This document shows, in pieces, positions 1,951-53,800 of a DNA stretch of 64,000 nt (its first letter is position 1; each line of letters begins with the position of its first letter). A program made the position numbers and the translations under genes. This DNA comes from a virus (taxonomy: Duplodnaviria > Caudoviricetes): positions 20,114-84,113 of IMG/VR virus record IMGVR_UViG_3300021431_000010; one strand, 5' to 3'. The notes below the pieces were generated by a model, which made no database searches, had not been told where the DNA came from, and saw only the letters and a list, made by a program, of their open reading frames with translations.

Positions 1951-2463
1951 ATGGCAAACAGCACGATTACAGGTAAGAGTTTTAGCGAAATGCTTAATGA
2001 AGCTACTTCATTAGATATGCGTGACAAATTCAAAGGCCTGATTTATGAATTTACAGATGACGTCCATGCAATGGCACAGATCGTTTACTTCTATGAAGAA
2101 GACGGAAACACATTCTTATTCAAAGACGCTGAGTTTAAGAAACCGGTTACTGATAACGAATTCTTAGCAATGTACTTAGATGAAGTAGTTCCTGTTACTT
2201 TAGGTAACGGCACATCGATGACGAGATATGAAGATCTGAAAACAGAAACTCTTCAATTTTTAGAGTATAAAGATGCCTCTTTAACTAAGAGATTCTATGA
2301 AGTCGGTAATCATTTCTCAGGTGAAGCATATCAGGATCTTATGGGCTTTGTTCCTGGAGATAGCAAATCTGATTCCGGCGACAGCGCAGTAGTAGGTACA
2401 GCTGTTGTAGGTACAGCTGTTGTTGCTCCAAGTGAATCATCCGATGATACTGAGGAACATTAA
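1951..2463 (+). CDS. Hypothetical virion-associated protein with AVVGT repeat
   Basis: RBS GAGGAGG; C-terminal AVVGTAVVGTAVV repeat. Confidence 0.5.
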   Translation: MANSTITGKSFSEMLNEATSLDMRDKFKGLIYEFTDDVHAMAQIVYFYEEDGNTFLFKDAEFKKPVTDNEFLAMYLDEVVPVTLGNGTSMTRYEDLKTETLQFLEYKDASLTKRFYEVGNHFSGEAYQDLMGFVPGDSKSDSGDSAVVGTAVVGTAVVAPSESSDDTEEH

Positions 2464-2522
2464 TGGCTTACACATGGACTACAGGTGAAACAATCACCGC
2501 TGAAAAACTTAATAATACTGGT
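2461..2522 (+). repeat. 62-bp exact direct repeat (second copy 4549-4610)
   Basis: taatggcttacacatggactacaggtgaaacaatcaccgctgaaaaacttaataatactggt occurs twice. Confidence 0.9.
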
Positions 2523-2807
2523 AATATATTTTTCGTAAATGATACTGTATCTGATGTTGATAACAGCCATACTTTAGATAAAACATTTAGAGAAATAGCA
2601 GATGCATTCAACACTATGGTTGTCGTTATATGCCTTGATGATAGTAATAATGGTACTAAGAATAAATTTCTTGTAAACATGATTATAGATACTGACATTC
2701 AAAGAGTAATTGGTGCCAAAGATGGATATAATGGCATGGCTTATGATTTTTCTGCAGCAGCAGATAATGAGTATCCTGTATTTAATCCAGATGGCGGTCT
2801 AGAGTAA
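2463..2807 (+). CDS. Small structural paralogue 1 (W-x-x-G-[ED]-x-IT-x-EKLN N-terminus)
   Basis: First 20 aa identical to 4551..4895; shares LDKT[FWY]xEI motif. Confidence 0.6.
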   Translation: MAYTWTTGETITAEKLNNTGNIFFVNDTVSDVDNSHTLDKTFREIADAFNTMVVVICLDDSNNGTKNKFLVNMIIDTDIQRVIGAKDGYNGMAYDFSAAADNEYPVFNPDGGLE

Positions 2808-2841
2808 ATAAAAATAATCTTAAAAGAAAGGAGTCGTTACT

Positions 2842-3261
2842 ATGAAATTTGATGTAACATCATTTTTATATTTTGGCATGGCTGTAACGCTTCTTATGGC
2901 TGGTAATACAGCTTCAGGAGTAATGAAAGCTCGTAAAGACGGCTCTTATAATAAACAAGAGCTGATTGATGGCATATGCAGTTACGCTCTTTGGTTGGTT
3001 TCAATTCTCTGTCTTATTGCAGCTTCACAGATATTTGGTGGAGAATTTGAAATCACGATCGGAGAAACAACTTATACATTAGCTCAGGCAGTAGACATCA
3101 CAAAACGTGGTGTCTATTTAGTTTGGGCAGCTAAGTTGATTCAGAATGTATATGAATATGCAGGAATTAAACGTCAAGTTGATCTTGATAAAATTGTCGA
3201 AAATGCCAATAAAATACCAACAGTACAGGAAGCCATTATCGATCTAGAAGGGCAGGGTTAA
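2842..3261 (+). CDS. Putative holin
   Basis: Two to three hydrophobic segments; immediately upstream of endolysin. Confidence 0.6.
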   Translation: MKFDVTSFLYFGMAVTLLMAGNTASGVMKARKDGSYNKQELIDGICSYALWLVSILCLIAASQIFGGEFEITIGETTYTLAQAVDITKRGVYLVWAAKLIQNVYEYAGIKRQVDLDKIVENANKIPTVQEAIIDLEGQG

Positions 3262-6078: not shown

Positions 6079-6114
6079 TTTAAAGCTCCTTCAACTTGAG
6101 GGAGCTGTCTTTTA

Positions 6115-6261
6115 TGGTGTGCTGGTATGTTGCGGCTATCCTTTCTTTGCGGGCAAGTTATTTCTTTTGATTCTTACCATATAGCATGAATGCTCATTTC
6201 TTGGCGTTTGGCACATTCATGTAATCTCCTTTCTATATGACTAAATCTTACCAGCACACCA
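6115..6261 (+). ncRNA. Candidate structured RNA A (13-bp closing stem, anti-SD loops)
   Basis: tggtgtgctggta (6115-6127) pairs with taccagcacacca (6249-6261); internal hairpin catgaatg/cattcatg; loops tcctttctttg and aatctcctttct. Confidence 0.45.
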
Positions 6262-6313
6262 CAAAGGACTTAGTTTCGCAAAGACTATAAAAATCAAAAT
6301 GGAGGAAAAATTA

Positions 6314-6685
6314 ATGGCTTACGAAAAACAGACTTGGAACACAGGCGACGTAATAACTGAAGAGAAACTGAACCATATGGAAGATGGGATTGCTTCGGGT
6401 GGTGTATTAATCCTTACTGAAGATGAAAATGGAACTTTAAATCATACATGGGAAGAAATTAGAAACGCTATCATGAGTGGAATGAGAGTTGGTATGGTAC
6501 GAAATGAAGAAGATTATGAAGGTGTGCAATATAGTTTTGATGCTGTGAATTTTGTATTTTCGTATAATGACACAAGTGTATATAAAGTCTCAATGAATTA
6601 TTTTGGTGAAGGTATTGATTACACCACAGATTCACCAACTGGCTATCCTAAACGAAAGAGTGGCGGCGGCGACGATGATGCCTAA
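6314..6685 (+). CDS. Small structural paralogue 5
   Basis: MAYEKQTWNTGDVITEEKLNHMEDG; RBS GGAGG before ATG 6314. Confidence 0.6.
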   Translation: MAYEKQTWNTGDVITEEKLNHMEDGIASGGVLILTEDENGTLNHTWEEIRNAIMSGMRVGMVRNEEDYEGVQYSFDAVNFVFSYNDTSVYKVSMNYFGEGIDYTTDSPTGYPKRKSGGGDDDA

Positions 6686-8522: not shown

Positions 8523-8631
8523 GTAAATTTACTCTCCTTTCTCATATGACAATGTACGAACCGATTACATCATACCACATTGTAACCTTCGTGCGAATTA
8601 CAGAGTGTATTATGAAAGAGAGGAAATATTT

Positions 8632-16967: not shown

Positions 16968-17036
16968 CTACTCTTTTTGTTTTATATTTTCCTTTCGCGT
17001 ATTTTTCATACTCTATAGTGAGGAGAGTAGAGAAAA

Positions 17037-19099: not shown

Positions 19100-19299
19100 T
19101 TCGCGAAAATCCCAGATCCTATAATGAGAAAGGTATGGTAAATTTATGATTTATATTTTAGTAGCATTAATTGCCGGTATCGGTATCGGAACAATAATTG
19201 GAGCTTATTTTCACGAATACATTATTCACGAAGAAGAATATTATGTAGTCGAGGAGGATTAAACTCCTTTTATTTTTTTTCTTTGCAAAGGAGAGTAGA

Positions 19300-20247
19300 A
19301 TGCAATCTTATTATTTAGCGATTCGTCATGGTGATATTTCTGCGGTATACAACAAAGGAGAGTTTGTTAACGCATATGTAACTAAATGCGGTGAATCTAA
19401 AGAGTATAAAAACGAGGACGACTTTTTAGATTATTTGGACTATTTAGGAATCACTATCAATGATGTAAAGGAGGGTACAGGTATGAAAGAAAATTACATC
19501 TACACTAGCAGTAACTATGACGATTTTGTTTTCAGAACAGCCAACAGAGACGTTGATATTCAGCACATCAATAAGATTGCTGAGAATATGAAAGTCAATG
19601 GATGGCAGGGTGCTCCTATCGAAGTTTCTTTGACTGACGATAAGAAATTTCAGATCGAGGATGGTCAGCATCGTTTTATGGCTTGCAAAAAGTCAAATAC
19701 TCCGGTCAAATTTATGGTCGTTAAAAAGATGTCCATCTATGATGTGGCAACTAAGAACTCCATGAAGAAAGGCTGGAAGGGATCCGACTATATTAAGGCA
19801 TACTCTGAAGACGGCAATTTTAACTACAAGCGTTTGAAGAATTTACAGGACGAATTTCCGAAAGTAAGTTTGTCTGATATTCTTGACGTTGTAGTTGGAA
19901 AGCATACTCAGAATAACCTTAAGAAAGGTTACATCCATATTAACGATGAGCAGTATTACAAGGCCAGAGAGGTCTTAAAATCGCTCACAATCATGAACGA
20001 ATCTTTGAAGTTGATTGGCGTAAAAACCATGTCAAGCTATAAGAAGATTCTGGTTGATCTCTTATTGAATGATGTTATTGATCCTCAAAGAATGATTGAT
20101 AAGCTTGATAAACATGGTAGAATGCTTCTTCCACCATCGGCTACAAAAGATCAAGCCATTCAGTATCTTGAGGCGTTATATAACTATCACCAGAGAGATA
20201 AAACTACAGTCATGTTCAGAGAACAGTTAAAGGGTAGGCGTAAATAA
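19300..20247 (+). CDS. ParB/Srx-like domain protein
   Basis: NRDVD...PIEV...IEDGQHRFMA motif. Confidence 0.7.
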   Translation: MQSYYLAIRHGDISAVYNKGEFVNAYVTKCGESKEYKNEDDFLDYLDYLGITINDVKEGTGMKENYIYTSSNYDDFVFRTANRDVDIQHINKIAENMKVNGWQGAPIEVSLTDDKKFQIEDGQHRFMACKKSNTPVKFMVVKKMSIYDVATKNSMKKGWKGSDYIKAYSEDGNFNYKRLKNLQDEFPKVSLSDILDVVVGKHTQNNLKKGYIHINDEQYYKAREVLKSLTIMNESLKLIGVKTMSSYKKILVDLLLNDVIDPQRMIDKLDKHGRMLLPPSATKDQAIQYLEALYNYHQRDKTTVMFREQLKGRRK

Positions 20248-20331
20248 GCGTCTACTCTTTTTCTTTTCGGTAAACAGGTTACAGTTTTTAAAGATATTTT
20301 AATAAAGTAAAAAATATAAGGAGAGCAGAAA

Positions 20332-20511
20332 ATGACAGTCGGTGAACTGATTGCAAAGCTTGAAAAGCTTGATAAAAATCTTCCAGTTGTAGTGTACGCT
20401 GGAGAACTTGCATGCGATGAAATTATTGGAGAGTATGGGCTTAAAATAGCAAACTCTGTGCATCTTGATTGCAATGATTTAGGAACTAAATATGTTCTTA
20501 TAGAAGAATAA
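20332..20511 (+). CDS. 59-aa hypothetical (MTVGELIAKLEKL), not in ORF track
   Basis: RBS AAGGAG; MTVKEL family. Confidence 0.6.
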   Translation: MTVGELIAKLEKLDKNLPVVVYAGELACDEIIGEYGLKIANSVHLDCNDLGTKYVLIEE

Positions 20512-20748
20512 ATGAAAACCATAGCGATAATCGATATGCCTAAAGGCATACCTAAAAGATGTATTGATTGTAAGTATTTTGACTATTCACATTATTGCCA
20601 ATTAAATGGGCATGAAATGACTTTAAATGAGTTTGATGATATTTCAACGGTAAAAAGGCCAAAATGGTGCCCGTTAAAACCAATACCAAAAAGAGAAAAA
20701 GCAAATAAAGGAACCTCTGGTGAGTTTAAAACAATAGACGAGAAATAG
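20512..20748 (+). CDS. Cys-containing small protein
   Basis: IDMPK..CxxC..C..RPKWCPL phage motif. Confidence 0.6.
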   Translation: MKTIAIIDMPKGIPKRCIDCKYFDYSHYCQLNGHEMTLNEFDDISTVKRPKWCPLKPIPKREKANKGTSGEFKTIDEK

Positions 20749-20749
20749 A

Positions 20750-20968
20750 ATGAAAGCAACAGGAATAAAAAATAGACTATCGTTAAAACACTTAATCGAA
20801 ACATTAAGAATGGAACACGAAATTGAGATAAGAAATGAAGACAATTATAGATTATTTAATTGTCCAAGTAATTCACAAGCATTAGAGCCTTATTTGAATA
20901 GAGAAGTTATTGAATGGTTTGCATATGGAAGTTGCAAAATAGTTGTTTCAATAGGAGAAAAAGAATGA
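20750..20968 (+). CDS. Small hypothetical
   Basis: Bounded by junction repeats; ends GEKE. Confidence 0.6.
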   Translation: MKATGIKNRLSLKHLIETLRMEHEIEIRNEDNYRLFNCPSNSQALEPYLNREVIEWFAYGSCKIVVSIGEKE

Positions 20969-26815: not shown

Positions 26816-26897
26816 GGTTTATCTATGTCGAAAAGAGGACATCGCATGATGTCTTCTTTTTTCTTTGCGCGAAAGGAGAGTAGAAAGGAACGGTATT

Positions 26898-28506: not shown

Positions 28507-28531
28507 AAGATATTTGAAAGGAGAGTAGAAA

Positions 28532-39775: not shown

Positions 39776-39999
39776 GTGATCAGTATTATTACATCTGCGA
39801 TGCCAAGAGAAAGATAAAAGATGGTGCTTGTACAGGTGAGAGCTGCAAGTATTTAAACGATGGTAACTGTGAGCGTACCAAAGATATTCAGTACGCCAAG
39901 AACAAGTTCGATCGAAAGAACTTTGAGTTTGTCTGTCATCAGTCACAAGGTGACCTTGATATTTACTCTGAGAAGAACAAGAAAGGAGAGTACATCTAA
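39772..39999 (+). CDS. Cys-rich small protein
   Basis: Four Cys in N-terminal half. Confidence 0.55.
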   Translation: MSDQYYYICDAKRKIKDGACTGESCKYLNDGNCERTKDIQYAKNKFDRKNFEFVCHQSQGDLDIYSEKNKKGEYI

Positions 40000-42051: not shown

Positions 42052-42604
42052 GGGAACTCATGCTTTTTTGAGTGCTTCAAGTTATCACTGGCTGAACTAT
42101 ACAGATGACAAATTGATATCTGTATTTAAGGCAAAGCTAGCGGCACAAAAAGGCACTGAGCTTCATGATTTTGCATCTAGATGTATTAAACTTCGTCAAA
42201 GGCTTCCGAAGTCTAATAAGGCTTTAAATGCTTTTGTGAACGATGCTATCGGATACGGTATGGATTCTGAGATTCCTTTATATTATTCGGCGAACTGCTA
42301 TGGAACTGCAGACGCTATTTACTTTGGCAAGCAGCGCGGTTCAGAAAGAATGATATTACGAATCCATGATTTGAAGACTGGTGACATACCAGCCAAGATC
42401 GACCAGTTATTGGTCTATGCGTCTTTGTTCTGTTTGGAGTATGGATTTAAGCCTGGTGAGATTGACATGGAATTGAGGATTTATCAAGGGAATGAAGTTC
42501 TCTTCTATAATCCGAAGCCTGAAGAAATCTTACCGATTATGGATTTAATCATTCGCTTCAGTAAGATCCTTGACGACATCAAAGCTAGGGAAGGAGTGAA
42601 TTGA
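42023..42604 (+). CDS. PD-(D/E)XK exonuclease (Cas4/RecB-like)
   Basis: HAFLSAS, GTELH, GTADAI, IHDLKTG, QLLVYA. Confidence 0.75.
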   Translation: MKWNPHSAIEGTHAFLSASSYHWLNYTDDKLISVFKAKLAAQKGTELHDFASRCIKLRQRLPKSNKALNAFVNDAIGYGMDSEIPLYYSANCYGTADAIYFGKQRGSERMILRIHDLKTGDIPAKIDQLLVYASLFCLEYGFKPGEIDMELRIYQGNEVLFYNPKPEEILPIMDLIIRFSKILDDIKAREGVN

Positions 42605-45597
42605 TATTTATGACTTATGAGAAACCGTCGTTAGACGATTTTTTAATGCATTACGGTATTGACCATATTAAAGGAACTCCTGGATCTGGCAGATATCCTT
42701 GGGGTTCTGGAGATACACCATTCCAGCATTCTGGAGATTTTCTTTCGTTCGTAACTCAGCTGAGGAAAGAAAAGCCAACATACACAGATAATGAAGAATA
42801 CATTATAAAGAATGGTGAAAAGATTAAGAATCCTGATTATGGTAAAACATTCAAAGGCGAAACCGCTGTAGCAAAGATATTAAAGATGAGCACTACAGAA
42901 TATAGGCACGCTATTACTCTTGCATCTAATCTTGATAAGATGGACAAGATTAATCGTGCTGAAGCTTTATGGAATACATACGATGAAAATGGAAAACATA
43001 AGTATGGATATTCTGAGATTGCTCGTAAAATGGGTTTGCCTAATGAATCATCTGTTAGATCACTTTTAGAGCCTTCTAGAAGAGCAAACATTGAGATATC
43101 CTTGAAGACTGCAGACTTCTTAAAAGATCGTCTTAATGAACTTTCTAAGTCCGATCCAAAAGCTATGATTGATATTGGTCCTGGTGTTGAGACTGAACTC
43201 AATATCACTAGAACTAAGCTCGATGATGCTGTTTATATTTTGGAAGGAGAAGGTTATAAGACATTTGGTGGAAGAGTTCCTAATATTACTGATCCATCTG
43301 GTGCAAGACAAACAACAATGAATGTTATTGCTACACCAGATGCGAATTGGAAAGATTTTTACGAGTATAGTCATATCAAAGGTATTAAAGATTATGAAGC
43401 TATTAACAATGGAATTGATGGATTTAAAAAGAAATTTGAATTCCCTGAGTCCATGGATTCTAGCAGATTGATGATTAGATATGCTGAAGATGGTGGTAAA
43501 GAAAAAGATGGTCTTGTTGAACTTAGAAGAAACGTAGATGATCTTTCTCTTGGTGAAAAGAATTATGCTCAGGTACGAATCCTTGTTGATGGAACTAAAT
43601 ATATTAAAGGCATGGCAGCTTATGCTATTGATCAAGATTCATTTCCACCTGGTGTTGATGTGATATTTAACACTAATAAGCATAAGGATGTTGCTAAACT
43701 TGATGTTTTAAAAGATGTTAAGAGAGACAAAATTACTGGTGAAATTGATAGAGATAATCCATTCGGTTCTTTGATTAAAGATAAAGAACAGGGTGGTCAA
43801 AGCTATTATACCGGTAAAGATGGTAAACAACATCTTAGTCTTATCAATAAAAGAGCTGATGAAGGTGACTGGGATAACTGGAAAGACACACTTTCGGCAC
43901 AGTTCTTATCGAAGCAAACAGTTCAGTTAGCAAAGAGACAGTTGAATTTAGCTGTTCTTGAAAAACAAGAAGAGTTAAAAGATATTATGAGTCTTGAAAA
44001 TAATACACTTAAAAAGTATTACTTAGATTCATTTGCTAGTGACTGCGATTCTTCAGCTGTTCATTTGACAGCAGCAGCTTTACCAAGACAGAAGTTCCAG
44101 GTTATTTTACCTATTCCGTCAATGAAAGATAATGAAATCTATGCACCTAACTATAAAGATGGTGAACAGGTAGCATTAGTTCGTTATCCACATGGTGGCC
44201 AATTCGAAATTCCAATTCTGACTGTTAATAATAAACAGAAAGATGGCGTTGCAATGATTGGCAAGAACTCAAGAGATGCTGTCGGTATTAATGCTTCTGT
44301 TGCAGAAAAGCTTTCTGGAGCTGACTTTGATGGCGATACTGTTATGGTTATCCCAACAAACAGCACTATTAGAATCAAGAATAATAACGGAAAGTCTTTG
44401 AAAGGCTTAGAAGGTTTCGAACCAAAAGAGGTTTATGGCTGCGATCCTAGTAAGACTTATGAAGATAAGAATGGTAATAAGCATTACTTTAATAAAGCAG
44501 GTTTGGAATTCAAGGTAATGAAGAACACTCAGAATGAAATGGGTCGTATTTCAAACCTTATTACAGACATGACTATTAAAGGCGCTACAGAAGATGAATT
44601 AGCAAAAGCAGTTCGTCATTCAATGGTTGTTATTGATGCAGAAAAGCATAAACTTGATTACCAGTCAAGCTACGCTCAGAATGAGATTGAACGTCTTAAA
44701 AAGAAGTATCAAGCTCATTTGGATGAAGATGGAAAAGAAGCATATGGCGCGTCAACTCTTATTTCAATGGCTAAGTCTCAGAAAGATGTAGTTAGAAGAA
44801 GAGGCCAGCCTCGAGTTAATATTAAAGGTCGTCCTGATTATGATCCATCTAAGCCAGAAGGTGCATTATTATATAAAGAAGATCCTAAAGCTAGGTACAC
44901 TATAGAGAAGGTTAATAAAAAGACTGGGGAAGTAAAGGTAATAGAAAAAACTCGTAAGCAGCCAAGCACAAAAATGGCTGAAACAGATGATGCTAGAACA
45001 TTGATCTCAGATAGAAATTCTCCAATGGAACAACTTTATGCCTCCTATGCCAATACAATGAAAAGTATGGCTAACCAGGCTAGAAAGCTTAGTTATGAAA
45101 CAAAAGGATCTGAATATAGTAGTAATGCAGCAAAGAAATACGCTAACGAGGTACGAGAACTAGAGAATCAGTTAGATCTGTCTACTAAGAATAAACCTAG
45201 AGAAAGACAGGCTCAAGTTATTGCTACTGTATCATTTAAAGCAAAGGTTCAAAGTAATCCAGACATTAAGAAGGAAGACAAGAAGAAACTTAGACAGATA
45301 GAGCTTACCAAGGCACGGTCTAGGGTAGGGGCCCAGAGGAATGAAATTACCATTACCGATGAAATATGGGAGGCTATCCAGGCTGGAGCAGTGCATGCGA
45401 ACACTTTAAGAAAAGTTTTAGACCATACGGACACGGATAAGTTAAGGGAGAGAGCTACTCCGAGTTCAAGAAAAACAATGACTGACGCCATGAAGAGTAG
45501 AGCAAAAGCTATGGCACAAAGTGGAAAAACAAATGCAGAAATTGCGGCAGCTCTTGGAGTTTCTTCTAGTACAATTGCTAAAGCTATTAAAGAATGA
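42601..45597 (+). CDS. Single-chain two-barrel RNA polymerase (YonO/QDE-1-like)
   Basis: RYPH, LSGADFDGD (44317-44337), GRISNLITD, HSMVVIDAEK; HTH motifs near both termini. Confidence 0.8.
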   Translation: MIFMTYEKPSLDDFLMHYGIDHIKGTPGSGRYPWGSGDTPFQHSGDFLSFVTQLRKEKPTYTDNEEYIIKNGEKIKNPDYGKTFKGETAVAKILKMSTTEYRHAITLASNLDKMDKINRAEALWNTYDENGKHKYGYSEIARKMGLPNESSVRSLLEPSRRANIEISLKTADFLKDRLNELSKSDPKAMIDIGPGVETELNITRTKLDDAVYILEGEGYKTFGGRVPNITDPSGARQTTMNVIATPDANWKDFYEYSHIKGIKDYEAINNGIDGFKKKFEFPESMDSSRLMIRYAEDGGKEKDGLVELRRNVDDLSLGEKNYAQVRILVDGTKYIKGMAAYAIDQDSFPPGVDVIFNTNKHKDVAKLDVLKDVKRDKITGEIDRDNPFGSLIKDKEQGGQSYYTGKDGKQHLSLINKRADEGDWDNWKDTLSAQFLSKQTVQLAKRQLNLAVLEKQEELKDIMSLENNTLKKYYLDSFASDCDSSAVHLTAAALPRQKFQVILPIPSMKDNEIYAPNYKDGEQVALVRYPHGGQFEIPILTVNNKQKDGVAMIGKNSRDAVGINASVAEKLSGADFDGDTVMVIPTNSTIRIKNNNGKSLKGLEGFEPKEVYGCDPSKTYEDKNGNKHYFNKAGLEFKVMKNTQNEMGRISNLITDMTIKGATEDELAKAVRHSMVVIDAEKHKLDYQSSYAQNEIERLKKKYQAHLDEDGKEAYGASTLISMAKSQKDVVRRRGQPRVNIKGRPDYDPSKPEGALLYKEDPKARYTIEKVNKKTGEVKVIEKTRKQPSTKMAETDDARTLISDRNSPMEQLYASYANTMKSMANQARKLSYETKGSEYSSNAAKKYANEVRELENQLDLSTKNKPRERQAQVIATVSFKAKVQSNPDIKKEDKKKLRQIELTKARSRVGAQRNEITITDEIWEAIQAGAVHANTLRKVLDHTDTDKLRERATPSSRKTMTDAMKSRAKAMAQSGKTNAEIAAALGVSSSTIAKAIKE

Positions 45598-45624
45598 GTG
45601 GAAGGAGAATAAAAAGAATCAAGG

Positions 45625-45927
45625 ATGAATGCCGAAGAAATTAAAAAAGAAAACAGTTTGATCGAGAATAATGCGAAGTTTGCATTAACAACTGTTGACA
45701 ATCCATATGATCCATTCACTCAATTCAGTGATTGGTTAATCTATGACAATTTAAAAGGTTACTGTTCGAGTAGTTATTTAGCAAGGATCGCAAAAACTTC
45801 TGAACAATTAAGCGATGAACTAAACAATGAAGAAATTGAACGAGCTATAGACGAGATCATTGCAAACGATTTCCTTGGAATTTATAGAAAAGCCATAAAT
45901 AAAAATTATAAATCGTTTGTTGGTTAA
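45625..45927 (+). CDS. Conserved phage hypothetical
   Basis: LTTVDNPYDPFTQF...YLARI. Confidence 0.7.
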   Translation: MNAEEIKKENSLIENNAKFALTTVDNPYDPFTQFSDWLIYDNLKGYCSSSYLARIAKTSEQLSDELNNEEIERAIDEIIANDFLGIYRKAINKNYKSFVG

Positions 45928-45954
45928 ACGTTTGTATCATTCTTTCTTTTTTGA

Positions 45955-46030
45955 GGCATAGGGAGGGGGTCATAAAAACCCCACCCCCTATTGCATCGCG
46001 GCGGTCTCAAAAAATTCTCCGGCGGGATTT
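45955..46030. other. GC-rich segment, candidate cos/packaging site
   Basis: ggggg/ccccc inverted tracts, then cgcggcggtct-caaaaaattctccgg, upstream of HNH and terminase. Confidence 0.4.
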
Positions 46031-46073
46031 TTTGCTGATATTTTCGGAAACCCAATCGCTTTTCCATGGTACT

Positions 46074-46202
46074 CTTTAGCGTTATTTACGAGGTATTAAG
46101 TACCGTGTTAGGGCTCTACTCTCCTTTCGCACGAGGTGTCTTCGTTTTTGTGACTTGGCATCTACTCTCCAAGTATTTAATGCCTCATAAATGACACTAA
46201 AG
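46074..46202 (+). ncRNA. Candidate structured RNA D with anti-RBS loops
   Basis: 30-bp imperfect stem 46074-46103/46173-46202; loop tctactctcctttcgc is the exact reverse complement of 26869-26884. Confidence 0.55.
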
Positions 46203-46246
46203 TATATTGAAACTATTACAGAACTGATAGGAAAGGAAGTGAGATC

Positions 46247-46603
46247 ATGGCTAAAAAGCGTGTAGTCGTAGAAGAAACTATACCAAAACTACGTCCAGCT
46301 GAGACAGAAGAGGGTCGTGAGAACCAGCTTATAGCTCTTGCAGCAGATGAAGTGGAGTATAGGATCCGTAATCATACAGCATCATCACAAGAATTGGTCC
46401 ACTTTCTCAGATTGGGATCAACAAAAAGCAAATTAGAGCTGGAGAAGCTTAGAAAAGAAAACGAATTGCTTGTTGCTAAAACTCAAGCACTACAATCTGC
46501 AAAACATTCCGAAGAACTCTTCGCTGCAGCTATGCAAGCATTCGGAATTTATACTGGAAATTCATCTAGTGATGAGGACAACGAAGATGTTGAACTATTC
46601 TAG
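46247..46603 (+). CDS. Putative terminase small subunit
   Basis: First late-operon gene, helical/coiled coil, before HNH and TerL. Confidence 0.45.
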   Translation: MAKKRVVVEETIPKLRPAETEEGRENQLIALAADEVEYRIRNHTASSQELVHFLRLGSTKSKLELEKLRKENELLVAKTQALQSAKHSEELFAAAMQAFGIYTGNSSSDEDNEDVELF

Positions 46604-47012
46604 ATGTTATTCAGAATTAATTAAACTAAAAAGTTTTCAGGAAAGATTAGAATACTTACTTCTTCATGGGAGTGTTGCTAAAGAAACGTTTGGGTACGAG
46701 AGATATTTGAATCAGTTACTTTACCATTGTCCTGAATGGAAAAGTGTTAAGAGAAAGATTATTCTTAGAGACAATGGCTGTGATTTAGGATGTGAAGGAT
46801 ACGAGATCTATAAAAATGCAATTATTCATCACATTAATCCGATCACTGTTGAGGATATTTTACAAAGAAGTCAAATGGTATTTGATCCTGAAAACTTGAT
46901 CACCACAAAATTAGATACACATAATTTAATACACTATGGAAGTGAGAACGATATTTTCACTAAGTCTTTTGTGGACCGTTCTCCTAATGATACCTGTCTT
47001 TGGAGGAGGTAG
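46587..47012 (+). CDS. HNH endonuclease (packaging-associated)
   Basis: RDNGCDLG...IHHINP...NLI...HNLIH. Confidence 0.8.
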   Translation: MLNYSRCYSELIKLKSFQERLEYLLLHGSVAKETFGYERYLNQLLYHCPEWKSVKRKIILRDNGCDLGCEGYEIYKNAIIHHINPITVEDILQRSQMVFDPENLITTKLDTHNLIHYGSENDIFTKSFVDRSPNDTCLWRR

Positions 47013-47378: not shown

Positions 47379-49142
47379 ATGCCGTTATCTAATACTGCCG
47401 TACCGATATATTACGGTAGATTTAGAGATTCCGTAATGAGAGGAGAGACAAAAATTAATAAGTACATCGCTATGGAGATGAACCGTATCGATGATCTTAT
47501 TAGTAATCCAGGAGTCTACTATGATCCTGATGCAATGAATGGCTTTGTTGCTTTTTGCGAGAATGAATTAACTCTTACAAATGGCGGCGATGTTAAAATG
47601 CTTGAGACATTTAAGCTTTGGTCAGAACAGATTTTTGGATGGTATTACTTTGTTGAACGTAGTGTATGGGTTCCAGATCCTAACGGACGAGGAGGTCACT
47701 ATGTTAGCAAATATTTTAAGAAACGCCTAATTACAAAACAATATTTAATTATTGCCAGAGGTGCTGCAAAATCTATGTATGCAGCTTTTCTTCAGGCATA
47801 TTTTCTGATCTGTGATCGTAGTGCTAATGGTCAAACAGTTACAGCTCCAACTATGGCTCAAGCTGATGAAGTGCTATCTCCGATCCGAACGGCTATTAAT
47901 CGATCTAGAGGCCCTATGTTCAAGTTCATGACCTACGGATCTTTACAAAACACAACCGGTAATAGGGCTGATAGAGTAAAGCTTGCTTCTACTAAGAAAG
48001 GTATTCAGAATTTTATTACTGGATCTACGATTGAAGTAAAACCTATGAGCCGTGATAAGCTTCAGGGTTATCGTGTTAAGATCGCAACAGTCGATGAATG
48101 GCTCTCTGGAGATACAAGGGAAGACGTCATTGGTGCTATTGAGCAATCTTGTACTAAGGAGCAAGGTGGTATTGAAGAAGTAAACGACTATTTGATTGTT
48201 GCCACTTCTTCGGAAGGTACAGTTCGAAATGGCCCAGGTGATACTATCAAAATGGAGCTAATTGACATACTTAAAGGAGATTACATCAACCCGAGAGTAT
48301 CGATCTGGTATTACAGATTGGATTCTGTTGAAGAGGTTGATGATCCTGCTATGTGGGTTAAAGCGAATCCGAATCTTGGTATTACAGTAAGTTATGAAAC
48401 ATACCAGTTGGATAAAGAACGAGCTGAGAAATCTCCATCAAATAGAAACGATATTCTGGCTAAGAGATTTGGAATCCCTTTGGAAGGTTATACATATTAC
48501 TTTCCATACGAGGAAACCTTGCCACATCATTTTAGATCATTTGATAAAATGCAGTGTTCTCTTGGAGCAGATATGTCTCAGGGTGATGACTTCTGTGCGT
48601 TTACATTTTTGTTTCCACTTAGAGGTGACGCCTTTGGCGTAAAGACTAGAAACTATATAAGCTCATTTACTTACGATAAATTACCGTCAGCGCTTAAGAG
48701 TAAATACGATGATTTTGTCAAAGAAGGCAGTCTGATGATCATGGATGGAACAATTTTAGACATGATGGAAGTCTATGATGACTTAGATAGATTCATAGAT
48801 GTTCATGGCTACGATGTTAACTGTTTTGGATTTGACCCGTATAATGCAAAAGAATTTGTTGAGCGTTGGGAAACAGAGCATGGACCATTTGGAGTTGAAA
48901 AAGTTATTCAGGGTGCTAGAACAGAATCAGTCCCATTAGGAGAATTAAAGAAGCTTTCTGAACAGAGGCTTCTTTTATTTGATGAATTAATCATGAACTT
49001 TGCAATGGGTAATTGTATTACTTTGGAAGATACTAATGGAAACCGGAAGTTATATAAGAAACGTTCCGATCAGAAAATAGACTGCGTAGCAGCAATGCTT
49101 GACGCTTTTGTTGCGTTTAAACATAACAAAGATAGTTTTTAG
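47379..49142 (+). CDS. terL: Terminase large subunit
   Basis: IARGAAKS Walker A, VDEW Walker B, GADMSQGDD nuclease, KIDCVAA. Confidence 0.9.
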   Translation: MPLSNTAVPIYYGRFRDSVMRGETKINKYIAMEMNRIDDLISNPGVYYDPDAMNGFVAFCENELTLTNGGDVKMLETFKLWSEQIFGWYYFVERSVWVPDPNGRGGHYVSKYFKKRLITKQYLIIARGAAKSMYAAFLQAYFLICDRSANGQTVTAPTMAQADEVLSPIRTAINRSRGPMFKFMTYGSLQNTTGNRADRVKLASTKKGIQNFITGSTIEVKPMSRDKLQGYRVKIATVDEWLSGDTREDVIGAIEQSCTKEQGGIEEVNDYLIVATSSEGTVRNGPGDTIKMELIDILKGDYINPRVSIWYYRLDSVEEVDDPAMWVKANPNLGITVSYETYQLDKERAEKSPSNRNDILAKRFGIPLEGYTYYFPYEETLPHHFRSFDKMQCSLGADMSQGDDFCAFTFLFPLRGDAFGVKTRNYISSFTYDKLPSALKSKYDDFVKEGSLMIMDGTILDMMEVYDDLDRFIDVHGYDVNCFGFDPYNAKEFVERWETEHGPFGVEKVIQGARTESVPLGELKKLSEQRLLLFDELIMNFAMGNCITLEDTNGNRKLYKKRSDQKIDCVAAMLDAFVAFKHNKDSF

Positions 49143-53416: not shown

Positions 53417-53800
53417 ATGGAGAGATTTGTATTCTATAATCCAAATCCAAAAGGCATAAAAGTTGGTGATTGTGTTATTCGAGGATTATCTAAATTACTA
53501 GATTTATCTTGGGATAAGACATATACCGAAGTTATGCTAAAAGGATTTGAGATGAAAGATATGCCGTCAGCTAATAATGTATGGGGATCGTATCTTAAAT
53601 CAAAAGGGTATATGAGATTTAATATTTCAAATACCTGTCCAGATTGTTACACAGTAAAACAGTTCTGTGAGGATAATCCAAACGGAACTTTTCTTTTGGC
53701 CACAGGAGAGCATGTAGTGGCTGTAAAAGATGGTTTTTACTATGATGCATGGGATTCCGGAGATGAAGTTCCTATTTATTATTGGAGAAAGGAGAGATAA
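53417..53800 (+). CDS. Conserved hypothetical, possible Cys peptidase fold
   Basis: NPNP..GDCVIR...HVVAV...YYDAWDSG. Confidence 0.6.
   Translation: MERFVFYNPNPKGIKVGDCVIRGLSKLLDLSWDKTYTEVMLKGFEMKDMPSANNVWGSYLKSKGYMRFNISNTCPDCYTVKQFCEDNPNGTFLLATGEHVVAVKDGFYYDAWDSGDEVPIYYWRKER

What the first reader, a model, noticed from the sequence alone, without database searches (positions are those of the whole stretch)
46074..46202. Late-leader RNA whose loop is antisense to RBS regions of early/middle genes
Seen: a 30-bp imperfect stem (three G-U pairs, two mismatches on +) encloses ctctactctcctttcgc and a second tctactctcc. The loop is the exact reverse complement of 26869-26884 (16 nt), 28516-28529 (14 nt), 19287-19299 (13 nt), 17021-17032 (12 nt), 39981-39992 (12 nt) and the integrase RBS (8530-8541, 12 nt). 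At 26869 the matched sequence is an extra element just upstream of the likely SD, as expected for a maintained target. The late RBSs I checked (53787, 60621) lack the GTA(GA) extension. Inference: a trans-acting sRNA made with the late operon silences translation of early genes and integrase. Caveats: SD cores are intrinsically alike, and the - strand could encode a 17-aa peptide (MPSHKNEDTSCERRVEP).
Basis: partly seen in the sequence, partly recalled or inferred. Interest (0 to 1): 0.8.

Follow-up and report, generated by a model that had tools for sequence, protein, structure and literature searches.

The report
Phage late-leader RNA with anti-RBS loop
This stretch is one copy of a widespread, uncatalogued folded phage RNA that sits ahead of the DNA-packaging genes and holds out the same eight bases the ribosome uses to dock on messages, so it probably acts on ribosome-binding sites, but its proposed specific early-gene targets are not convincingly supported.

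Summary
The stem is real: -47.3 kcal/mol, z -6.6, and 14 of 30 pairs covary among 6 close relatives.

The element is not private to this phage. It lies 68 nt right of a cohesive-end (cos) site, after the gene for a YonO-type RNA polymerase and before terS-HNH-terL. Right of the same cos box, 62 of 71 unique related contigs have a 23-41-position inverted repeat. All 62 enclose a CUCC-type motif, and 45 carry exact CUCCUUUC. G-U outnumbers A-C 159:36, which points to a sense-strand RNA. Rfam has no such family.

The conserved loop, UUUUCUCCUUUCAG, is a generic anti-RBS and contains the 16S 3'-tail octamer.

Extended matches to own RBSs beat flank-shuffled controls in 3 of 7 lineages only. A foreign loop matches this phage's RBSs equally well. 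The loops do not covary with the terS or upstream-gene RBS.

The element can lie 0.9-1.6 kb from cos or 0.5-5.8 kb from terS. That argues against a cosB role or simple cis masking.

My best reading is a late-made, generic RBS-pairing RNA, possibly processed by RNase III. The function is untested.

Earlier scan notes on other DNA (e1-3504167, e1-5853137) describe the same kind of element.

The parts
42601..45597 (+). YonO-type single-subunit RNA polymerase gene (998 aa) with a C-terminal HTH. It is the last large gene before cos.
   Evidence: PHROG 4291 'RNA-dependent RNA polymerase' at 1086 bits. Pfam RdRP PF05183 E 1.4e-4 (21.2 bits, below the 23.8-bit cut-off) plus weak HTH/sigma-70 r4 hits at residues 957-997. 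DFDGD at residues 575-579. A homologue lies directly left of the cos box in 23 of 23 related loci with at least 3300 nt on that side.
45625..45927 (+). Conserved 100-aa protein of unknown function between the polymerase gene and cos.
   Evidence: PHROG 4303, E 5.5e-31. No Pfam or NCBIfam hit. Found left of the cos box in related loci.
45961..45988 (+). Conserved G-run/C-run hairpin immediately left of the cohesive end (a right-end cos subsite).
   Evidence: The same hairpin is followed by ..TTGCAT at the end of 8 of 18 related contigs read, and at the right end of the Arthrobacter phage Darby record.
45997..46005 (.). Probable 9-nt cohesive end (CGCGGCGGT).
   Evidence: Related contigs end just before it and others start just after it. 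The Darby record ends ...CTGCAT + CGCCGGCCT and starts with the cos box.
46006..46030 (+). Conserved left-end cos box (CTCAAAAAATTCTCCGGCGGGATTT).
   Evidence: The box pattern gave 115 matching stretches in viral contigs. It lies within 25 nt of the contig end in 30 of the 75 loci that keep at least 300 nt to its right.
46074..46202 (+). The structured RNA element. It has a 30-position closing helix (46074-46103 with 46173-46202) around a 69-nt apical domain.
   Evidence: Covariation: 14 of 30 pairs change on both sides, 94.4% of cells are paired, and 0 of 500 shuffles do as well.
46113..46129 (+). Loop motif 1. It contains CUCCUUUC (46121-46128), identical to the 3' tail of Gram-positive 16S rRNA (that identity is recalled, not from a call).
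   Evidence: CTCCTTTC occurs only 3 times on the + strand of the 64-kb window: here, in the second element, and at the minus-strand integrase RBS.
46161..46170 (+). Loop motif 2 (UCUACUCUCC), predicted unpaired, 2 nt before the 3' arm.
   Evidence: P(unpaired) 1.00. It reads UUUCUCUCC in L025 and L027.
46247..46603 (+). Probable small terminase subunit, assigned by position. First gene after the element.
   Evidence: PHROG 4259 (unknown function), E 1.7e-33. No Pfam or NCBIfam hit. A homologue lies right of the cos box in 68 of 70 loci.
46470..47012 (+). HNH endonuclease ORF. The family match covers residues 44-178, so the true start is probably near 46600.
   Evidence: PHROG 4321, E 5.7e-56.
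47379..49142 (+). Large terminase subunit.
   Evidence: Pfam TerL_nuclease, E 1.4e-32.
6115..6261 (+). Second, smaller element of the same design: a 13-bp closing stem with loops CUAUCCUUUCUUUG and AAUCUCCUUUCUAUA. It lies after a terminator in the late region.
Evidence: Fold of 6100-6290 gives -53 kcal/mol, z -3.5. It holds one of the 3 + strand CTCCTTTC sites.

Best explanation
The 129-nt stretch is one copy of a widespread, uncatalogued structured RNA domain. It is carried on the sense strand in the untranslated leader of the late (packaging and structural) operon of cos-HNH siphophages. These belong to the group that includes Lactococcus phage 1706, Faecalibacterium FP_oengus and Arthrobacter phages such as Darby. 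All of them place a YonO-type RNA polymerase gene just before cos.

A 22-41-bp closing helix holds out an apical domain. That length is enough for RNase III. In the apical domain a pyrimidine loop, consensus UUUUCUCCUUUCAG, is single-stranded. The invariant octamer equals the 16S rRNA 3' tail, so it is complementary to the consensus ribosome-binding site GAAAGGAG followed by an A-rich spacer.

Most likely the RNA is made with late transcripts, is perhaps cut out or stabilised through its long helix, and pairs with Shine-Dalgarno regions of messages. That would make it a generic anti-RBS riboregulator rather than a gene-specific antisense RNA.

Shown here:
- structure selected at the RNA level;
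- a strand-specific motif;
- conservation across lineages from Firmicutes-type to Actinobacteria phages;
- freedom of position between cos and terS.

Inferred:
- transcription with the late operon;
- processing;
- pairing with RBSs;
- any effect on translation.
For: Structure:
- z -6.6.
- 14 of 30 pairs have compensatory changes in 6 relatives, with 0 of 500 shuffles as good.

Family:
- Of 71 unique cos-box loci, 62 have an inverted repeat of at least 23 positions within 420 nt, against 3 of 213 dinucleotide shuffles.
- All 62 enclose a CUCC-type motif, 45 carry exact CTCCTTTC, and 0 carry GAAAGGAG.

RNA strand:
- The repeats were found by scoring Watson-Crick pairs only. Their mismatches are G-U 159 to A-C 36.
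- Taking one element per cluster (40 clusters) gives 107:24. G-U exceeds A-C in 29 clusters and the reverse holds in 2.

Loop:
- Consensus UUUU-CUCCUUUC-AG from 34 unique contexts, mean P(unpaired) 0.76.
- Sense-strand CTCCTTTC is almost unique to the element in each of 9 related genomes or records and occurs 3 times in the window.
- The U-run upstream of CUCC differs from 16S (recalled tail CACCUCC). It would pair with the A-rich spacer of RBSs, which favours mRNA pairing over pure 16S mimicry.

Position:
- The element is 0.86-1.67 kb from cos in L093, L107, L140 and L153, and 0.56-5.8 kb before terS in L087, L114, L117 and L127. Its action therefore does not depend on either neighbour.

Cultured members:
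- Darby and Lactococcus phage 1706.

Other:
- No sigma-70-type promoter was found in 45500-46400.
- Rfam has no match.
- An RNA-library contig from a roughly 90% relative spans 46095-46267. It has low depth, unknown strand, and DNA carry-over is not excluded.
Against: - No transcript end, strand or abundance was seen. The only RNA-library evidence is one low-depth contig from a relative.
- No conserved target was found. Loop against own terS RBS: 6.33 vs 6.11 nt for non-own, permutation p 0.087, duplex energy p 0.40. Loop against the RBS of the gene upstream of cos: 7.16 vs 7.13, p 0.48.
- An 8-nt seed that fits most RBSs, late ones included (10-nt matches at 53787 and 60621), gives no obvious selectivity. 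It would need high RNA abundance to matter.
- An invariant octamer is equally what a protein-binding site would look like.
- RNase III cleavage is inferred from helix length alone.
- 9 of the 71 loci lack a long repeat within 420 nt. When 13 loci were searched more widely, 4 of those 9 had the element near terS (L093, L107, L140, L153). L091, L143, L126 and L120 showed none. Neither did L132, which has only a covariance-model hit.
Confidence: 0.4

Rival explanations
1. This is a trans-acting late sRNA whose loop, through the extension beyond the SD core, specifically silences early genes and the integrase.
For: - Exact matches of 16, 14, 13, 12, 12 and 12 nt to own RBSs.
- Flank-shuffled loops do as well in 1 of 500 trials.
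- Two distant lineages also show extended own matches: G001 (17, 15, 14, 14, 13) and Darby (15 and 13 nt).
- The Darby matches are to gp34 and gp38, which appear to follow their own promoter-like TATAAT boxes in the sequence upstream of the two starts.
- TACUCUCC is kept in the window's subgroup (L025-L030).
Against: - 4 of 7 lineages show nothing above control (G002, G005, G006, W02).
- The foreign W02 loop gets 15-nt matches in the window and in G001.
- RBS-against-RBS similarity in this phage is as high as the loop matches.
- Two of the targets share one repeated junction.
- The closest relative's 6.4-kb early fragment, L002, has 0 GGAGAGTA among 19 GGAG.
- Duplex energies for early and late RBSs do not differ (p 0.97).
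- The flanks are not conserved family-wide.
Confidence: 0.12
2. An operon-level cis element. The long helix would be an RNase III processing or stabilising site, or an RNA that modifies the transcribing polymerase (put- or EAR-like). The pyrimidine loop would be a protein-recognition site rather than an antisense seed.
For: - It always lies on the sense strand between cos and the packaging genes, at a variable distance from both.
- Helix length of 22-41 bp is kept across lineages.
- The loop is invariant although neighbouring SDs vary.
- A second copy lies inside the late region after a terminator.
- In SPbeta, YonO starts the late operon upstream of an unannotated non-coding RNA (passages of PMC5467207), and 1.68 kb lies unannotated between yonN and yonK.
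Against: - A processing or antitermination site has no evident need for the exact 16S-tail octamer plus a U-run that mirrors RBS spacers.
- No Rfam antitermination or leader family matches.
- No partner protein can be named.
Confidence: 0.25
3. A cis translational operator. The loop would mask the RBS of the next gene, usually terS, to throttle small-terminase synthesis.
For: - The median distance from the 3' arm to the next start is 52 nt across 49 unique loci, and the next ORF is usually terS-like.
- Many terS RBSs read GAAAGGAG.
Against: - There is no covariation between the loop and the own terS RBS (p 0.087 for match length, 0.40 for energy).
- Many terS RBSs are GAGAGGAGG or GAAAGGAAG while the loop stays CUCCUUUC.
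- In 4 loci terS lies 0.56-5.8 kb downstream with other genes between.
Confidence: 0.08
4. A decoy that mimics the 16S rRNA 3' tail for a protein or nuclease that recognises the anti-SD region, for example a host defence toxin or a ribosome factor.
For: - Exact identity of the octamer with the Gram-positive 16S tail (recalled).
- Invariance across hosts from two phyla.
- The motif is displayed single-stranded on a very stable scaffold.
Against: - The base before CUCC is U in 25 of 34 contexts and C in 1 of 34, unlike 16S (CCUCC).
- No candidate binding protein was identified.
- The idea rests purely on sequence resemblance.
Confidence: 0.07
5. A DNA-level packaging signal (a cosB-like small-terminase binding site) formed by the inverted repeat.
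For: - In this window it lies 68-197 nt right of the cohesive end and before terS, which is the position of lambda cosB (recalled).
Against: - The strand-asymmetric mismatch spectrum (G-U 159 to A-C 36; 29 clusters against 2) is not expected for duplex DNA.
- The arms differ completely between lineages yet stay complementary.
- The element lies 0.86-1.67 kb from cos in 4 loci, while the conserved cos box stays at the end.
Confidence: 0.03

Closest known systems
c4 antisense RNA of phages P1/P7 (Rfam RF01695; properties recalled, no paper read here)
   Same: Phage-encoded. It is embedded in the leader of the operon it belongs to and processed out of that transcript. Its exposed loops pair with an RBS region to block translation.
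   Different: No Rfam hit here. The closing helix is far longer. The loop is a generic anti-SD octamer rather than a gene-specific sequence. No cognate target was found. The host range is Firmicutes- and Actinobacteria-type phages.
C/U-rich-loop sRNAs of Gram-positive bacteria that target SD sequences (RsaE/RoxS, 6C, LhrC, streptococcal csRNAs; recalled)
   Same: Single-stranded pyrimidine or C-rich loops on hairpins that pair with G-rich SD regions of several mRNAs.
   Different: Those are chromosomal genes with their own promoter and terminator and carry UCCC/CCCC motifs. This element sits inside a phage leader, is framed by a 22-41-bp helix with no terminator after the 3' arm, and carries CUCCUUUC. 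The only Rfam trace (LhrC, 18.4 bits against a threshold of 110, at 45908-46034) lies outside the element and is noise.
RNase III processing helices: phage T7 and SP82 intercistronic sites, and the rRNA leader-trailer helix (recalled; PMC10250234 seen only in a search listing)
   Same: A long double-stranded RNA helix inside a polycistronic transcript, framing an internal RNA. The pre-16S helix also frames an RNA that ends in the same octamer.
   Different: Cleavage was not tested. T7 sites have no conserved anti-SD loop. The enclosed RNA here is only 40-145 nt.
Late-operon leader of SPbeta, transcribed by YonO (PMC5467207, passages read)
   Same: A YonO-type polymerase gene upstream. The late operon starts with non-coding RNA. 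1.68 kb lies unannotated between yonN and yonK and is rich in UCCUU-type motifs.
   Different: No exact CTCCTTTC was found there. Long enclosing stems were not searched for. The only Rfam hit there is DUF3800-VIII. SPbeta packages by headful from a site between yonR and yonP (passages of bioRxiv 10.1101/2021.11.22.469490).
Lambda cosB (recalled)
   Same: Its position between the cohesive end and the small-terminase gene in this window.
   Different: The signals here are at the RNA level, and adjacency to cos is not conserved.
phi29 pRNA (recalled)
   Same: An RNA encoded at the left genome end next to the packaging genes, built from a long 5'/3' helix and a loop-bearing apical domain.
   Different: There is no pair of mutually complementary loops: 0 of 62 elements contain GAAAGGAG. 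The phage type is different (cos-HNH-terminase).

Membership tests
Any Rfam 15 family | Covariance-model score at or above the family's gathering threshold | tested here: not met
   0 matches in the whole window at gathering thresholds. In 45900-46300 at E up to 10 there were only 6 chance-level hits, all far below threshold.
c4-type phage antisense RNA (RF01695) | Loops complementary to a defined target in the same operon, covarying with it | tested here: not met
   No covariation with the own terS RBS (p 0.087 and 0.40) or with the RBS of the gene before cos (p 0.48). No RF01695 hit.
Trans-acting anti-SD sRNA (RsaE, 6C or csRNA type) | Exposed pyrimidine-rich loop complementary to SD sequences | tested here: met
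   CUCC-type motif in 62 of 62 elements, mean P(unpaired) 0.76.
Trans-acting anti-SD sRNA (RsaE, 6C or csRNA type) | Discrete small transcript with its own promoter and terminator | tested here: inconclusive
   No sigma-70-type promoter in 45500-46400 and no terminator after the 3' arm. A weak terminator-like hairpin lies inside the element at 46131-46145. RNA ends could not be read from contigs.
RNase III substrate | About two turns or more of nearly uninterrupted double-stranded RNA | tested here: met
   Helices of 22-39 positions in 12 hand-collected relatives and 23-41 in 62 others.
RNase III substrate | Cleavage by RNase III | not testable with these tools
   This needs in vitro cleavage, or RNA ends compared between wild-type and rnc hosts.
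cosB-like terminase binding site | Fixed adjacency to the nicking site and recognition as duplex DNA | tested here: not met
   The element is 0.86-1.67 kb from cos in 4 of 13 loci examined. G-U to A-C asymmetry is 159:36.
phi29-type pRNA | Two loops with intermolecular complementarity | tested here: not met
   0 of 62 elements contain the complement GAAAGGAG, and 8 of 62 contain any GGAG.
Intrinsic terminator | Hairpin followed directly by a U-run | tested here: not met
   No terminator-like site at the 3' arm. An RNA-library contig from a relative runs from inside the element into terS (weak).
Small protein-coding gene (minus-strand 17 aa, or plus-strand 42 aa at 46066-46194) | Conserved start codon and reading frame in relatives | tested here: not met
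   The minus-strand ATG is absent in L025 and L027. The plus-strand ATG at 46066 is absent in L025 (sequences). Compensatory stem changes dominate instead.

The most novel reading that the evidence does not exclude
These phages make, together with their late genes, an abundant and very stable RNA that displays the ribosome's own mRNA-docking tail. It would compete with 30S subunits for Shine-Dalgarno sites, or soak up a host factor or nuclease aimed at that tail. Either way, an RNA mimic of the ribosome would reprogramme translation late in infection. The device would be conserved from Lactococcus and gut Firmicutes phages to Arthrobacter phages and linked to YonO-type polymerases.
Probability: 0.15. 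Interest if true: 0.85.

Novelty: new variant of a known kind. Interest (0 to 1): 0.62.

Why it matters
If the reading holds, a whole supergroup of phages shares an RNA device at the head of the late operon. That supergroup is already noted for shared ancestry across Actinobacteria and Firmicutes and for a YonO-type polymerase (bioRxiv 10.1101/842583; passages read).

The business end of the device is the 16S anti-SD octamer. It would add a phage-encoded, generic RBS-directed RNA to the known ways phages switch from early to late protein synthesis.

It would also give a concrete, testable function to the 'non-coding RNA' that starts YonO-driven late transcription. Cultured members (Lactococcus phage 1706, Arthrobacter phage Darby) make it directly testable.

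Even if the function turns out to be processing or stability, this is a new, strongly supported RNA motif absent from Rfam 15.

Tried and rejected
- **DNA similarity to named phages.** Distant blastn of 45600-46700 found no match.
- **Covariance model from the window's subgroup (R1).** In 97 sources it found only 14 plus-strand hits: close relatives plus L132, L153 (two hits), L010/L157 and L013. It also hit the minus strand of the same palindromic sites. It is too sequence-bound for the whole family, so family statistics were made with a Watson-Crick-only inverted-repeat finder instead.
- **cis masking of the terS RBS.** No covariation.
- **A conserved target at the RBS of the gene before cos.** None found.
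- **cosB role.** Rejected on mismatch asymmetry and variable distance.
- **Peptide-coding readings on either strand.** Rejected because the starts are not conserved.
- **Promoter search.** No sigma-70-type site. I could not define the polymerase's promoter or the transcript start.
- **RNA runs.** Three metatranscriptomic runs (X1-X3) from one study held small shares (0.16, 0.05, 0.00). Laid as contigs, they give only scattered low-depth pieces. Most of 45504-46094 and 46268-46844 has no cover, which proves nothing. No strand, start or end can be read.
- **SPbeta comparison.** There is an analogous long leader, but no exact CTCCTTTC was found in it, I did not search it for long stems, and the packaging site lies elsewhere.
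- **Literature.** Five full-text searches turned up no description of this RNA. In bioRxiv 10.1101/842583 the words cohesive, non-coding and hairpin have 0 occurrences. PMC8040213 lists thousands of candidate microbiome RNAs, and its main text has 0 occurrences of terminase, prophage or Shine-Dalgarno. Its supplementary tables, which I could not open, might contain this motif.
- **NCBIfam.** It gave nothing for five neighbouring proteins.
Full report
**1. What is at the coordinates**

Positions 46074-46202 contain a 30-position inverted repeat, 46074-46103 with 46173-46202. It has 25 Watson-Crick pairs, 3 G-U pairs and 2 A-C mismatches when read on the + strand. It surrounds 69 nt.
- As + strand RNA it folds at -47.3 kcal/mol, against a shuffle mean of -24 (z -6.62, 0 of 200 shuffles as good).
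- The - strand folds less well: -34.6, z -3.70.
- TCTACTCTCC occurs at 46115 and 46161.
The integrase RBS on the - strand shares 12 nt with the loop.
- The 17-aa minus-strand ORF exists.

**2. Genomic setting**

The window is part of an 84,113-bp virus record. Upstream of the element:
- 42601-45597 encodes a 998-aa protein that matches PHROG 4291 ('RNA-dependent RNA polymerase', 1086 bits).
- It matches Pfam RdRP weakly and has a C-terminal HTH. It carries DFDGD at residues 575-579.
- This is the YonO-type two-barrel polymerase described for this phage supergroup in bioRxiv 10.1101/842583 (passages read).
- For SPbeta, the polymerase is reported to transcribe the late genes starting upstream of 'an unannotated non-coding RNA', with the promoter unknown (PMC5467207, passages read).

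Downstream of the element come:
- a probable small terminase (PHROG 4259, assigned by position);
- an HNH endonuclease (PHROG 4321);
- a connector protein;
- TerL.

**3. A cos site lies just to the left**

- Of 18 related contigs read past the polymerase gene, 8 end at the same homologous point: a G-run/C-run hairpin followed by ..TTGCAT.
- Nine of 32 contigs found with the terS protein start at a conserved box, CTCAAAAAATTCTCCGG.GG.
- Contigs that read through have 9 nt between the two ends.
- The deposited ends of Arthrobacter phage Darby show the same arrangement. The right end is ...CTGCAT + CGCCGGCCT, and the left end starts with the box.
- In the window the overhang is 45997-46005 and the left end starts at 46006. 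The element therefore begins 68 nt inside the left end.

**4. The element is a family**

Twelve hand-collected relatives all have a 22-39-position closing helix of quite different sequence around a CUCC-bearing interior.

I then scanned viral contigs for the cos box. There were 115 matching stretches, of which I analysed the 80 that were listed.
- 75 had at least 300 nt to the right of the box, and 71 of these were unique.
- 62 of the 71 have an inverted repeat of at least 23 positions within 420 nt, scored on Watson-Crick pairs only. Only 3 of 213 dinucleotide shuffles reach that.
- All 62 enclose a CUCC-type motif. 45 have exact CTCCTTTC, none has the complement GAAAGGAG, and 8 have any GGAG.
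- The minimal form is a 30-41-bp helix capped by about 40 nt.
- Among 6 close relatives, 14 of 30 stem pairs change on both sides and 94.4% of cells pair. None of 500 shuffles, and no slid register, comes near.
- The element is also present in cultured phages: Darby and Lactococcus phage 1706, which has three CUCC loops.
- Rfam 15 has no matching family.

**5. RNA, not DNA**

The repeats were found with a strand-symmetric score, so the kind of mismatch they contain is informative.
- G-U on the sense strand occurs 159 times and A-C 36 times.
- Taking one element per sequence cluster (40 clusters) gives 107 against 24. G-U exceeds A-C in 29 clusters and the reverse holds in 2.
- The arms differ wholly between lineages but stay complementary.
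- This pattern fits selection on a sense-strand RNA fold, not on a duplex protein site.

**6. The conserved loop**

From 34 unique contexts the consensus is UUUU-CUCCUUUC-A-G. The base before CUCC is U in 25 contexts and C in 1. The mean unpaired probability is 0.76, and the loop lies closer to the 3' arm (median 21 nt) than to the 5' arm (median 40 nt).

The octamer equals the 3' tail of Gram-positive 16S rRNA (recalled). The U-run does not match 16S, but it would pair with the A-rich spacer that follows SD sequences.

On the sense strand the octamer is almost unique to the element:
- 3 sites in this window: this element, a second smaller element at 6115-6261, and the minus-strand integrase RBS;
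- 1-2 sites in each of G001-G006, G008, Darby and MT835495.1. The 7 sites in G007 are mostly a coding repeat.

**7.

For:
- Flank-shuffled versions of the window's loop do as well in 1 of 500 trials.
- Two distant lineages also show long own matches. G001 has 17, 15, 14, 14 and 13 nt.
- Darby has 15 and 13 nt, to gp34 and gp38, which appear to follow their own promoter-like TATAAT boxes.

Against:
- Four of seven lineages show nothing (G002, G005, G006, W02).
- The W02 loop finds 15-nt matches in the RBS sets of this window and of G001, but only 11 nt in its own genome.
- Real RBSs of this phage resemble one another as much as the loop resembles them. 21% of 91 RBS-derived pseudo-loops reach a top match of 14 or more.
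- The GGAG+AGTAGA form (4 copies) is tied with GGAG+AAACAG.
- The sites at 19287 and 26869 share one repeated junction.
- The second copy differs in L025 and L027.
- L002, the closest early-region fragment, has no GGAGAGTA among 19 GGAG.
- Early and late RBSs do not differ in duplex energy (p 0.97), though exact matches are slightly longer for early genes (p 0.03).

I conclude that lineage-specific extended pairing is possible but not established. The family-wide property is a generic anti-RBS seed.

**8. Where it may act**

- The loops do not covary with the RBS of the next gene: own 6.33 against non-own 6.11 nt, p 0.087, energy p 0.40, over 49 unique loci.
- They do not covary with the RBS of the conserved small gene before cos either: 7.16 against 7.13, p 0.48, over 19 loci.
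- The element's position is free. It lies 0.86-1.67 kb from cos in L093, L107, L140 (the same contig as L028) and L153.
- It lies next to cos but 0.56-5.8 kb before terS in L087, L114, L117 and L127.
- In L153 it is adjacent to neither (ORFs).
- The gene module itself is constant. The polymerase gene is found in 23 of 23 loci with enough left flank, and terS in 68 of 70 with enough right flank.
- These facts argue against a cosB role and against simple masking of the terS RBS.
- What remains is either a diffusible RNA or an operon-level cis function such as processing, stability or polymerase modification.

**9. Expression**

- No sigma-70-type promoter is predicted in 45500-46400. A weak terminator-like hairpin sits inside the element at 46131-46145, and none follows the 3' arm.
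- Three metatranscriptomic runs from one study hold small shares of the region.
- One 176-nt contig from a roughly 90% relative spans 46095-46267, that is, from inside the element into terS.
- Depth is low, the strand is unknown, and DNA carry-over cannot be excluded.

**10. Verdict**

The element is a member of a widespread, strongly supported sense-strand RNA motif, and I found no published description of it in the searches listed.

My best mechanistic reading is an RBS-pairing RNA made with late transcripts and framed by an RNase-III-length helix (0.4). The main rival is an operon-level processing or polymerase-acting element whose loop binds a protein (0.25).

Earlier notes of this scan on other genomes (e1-3504167, e1-5853137) describe the same kind of element. 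I saw them after my analysis. They are unchecked leads, not independent evidence.

Noticed in passing
window 45961-46030: A cos site: a conserved G-run/C-run hairpin, a 9-nt overhang (45997-46005) and a left-end box. Many related contigs end or start exactly here. The ends of the Arthrobacter phage Darby record match the arrangement.
   Followed up: yes
window 6115-6261: A second, smaller stem-enclosed RNA with two UCCUUUC loops. It lies after a terminator and before the gene at 6299-6685 (z -3.5). It has the same design as the 46074 element.
   Followed up: partly
window 46131-46145: A terminator-like hairpin plus a U-run inside the element (ACGAGG..CUUCGU, then UUUUU). It is conserved in L025 and L027 but not in distant members. 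It could give a short alternative transcript.
   Followed up: no
L028/L140 and L029, about 40-930; also L093, L107, L153: One or more extra ORFs lie between the cos box and the element. In L029 it is about 290 aa and was not identified here. In L087, L114, L117 and L127 extra genes lie between the element and terS instead.
   Followed up: partly
L086 (SPBc2 NC_001884.1) 19154-20834, minus strand: 1.68 kb is unannotated between yonN and yonK, where YonO starts late transcription. It holds many UCCUU-type pyrimidine motifs and one Rfam hit (DUF3800-VIII, 47.5 bits, at 19410-19475).
   Followed up: partly
L004 and L015, first ~900 nt after the polymerase gene; also L008: In place of cos there is an array of about 10 spaced copies of ATTGATATT(T/C), which looks iteron-like. 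The polymerase gene has a different downstream neighbourhood in these contigs.
   Followed up: no
L075 (G006) about 210-330: A second very long hairpin, about 33 bp, lies between the anti-RBS element and the next gene.
   Followed up: no
L058 (Darby) 1-604: A 604-nt leader before gene 1 folds at -254 kcal/mol (fold of nt 1-610) into several long hairpins. Only the last of them carries CUCCUUUC.
   Followed up: no
window 45625-45927: A conserved 100-aa protein (PHROG 4303, no known function) lies between the polymerase gene and cos in related loci. It may be worth a structure prediction.
   Followed up: no
L083 (G007) 1985-3057: Six sense-strand CTCCTTTC sites are spaced at about 174 nt. They are a coding repeat (ACTCCTTTCTGGG) inside a long ORF, not RNA elements.
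   Followed up: partly
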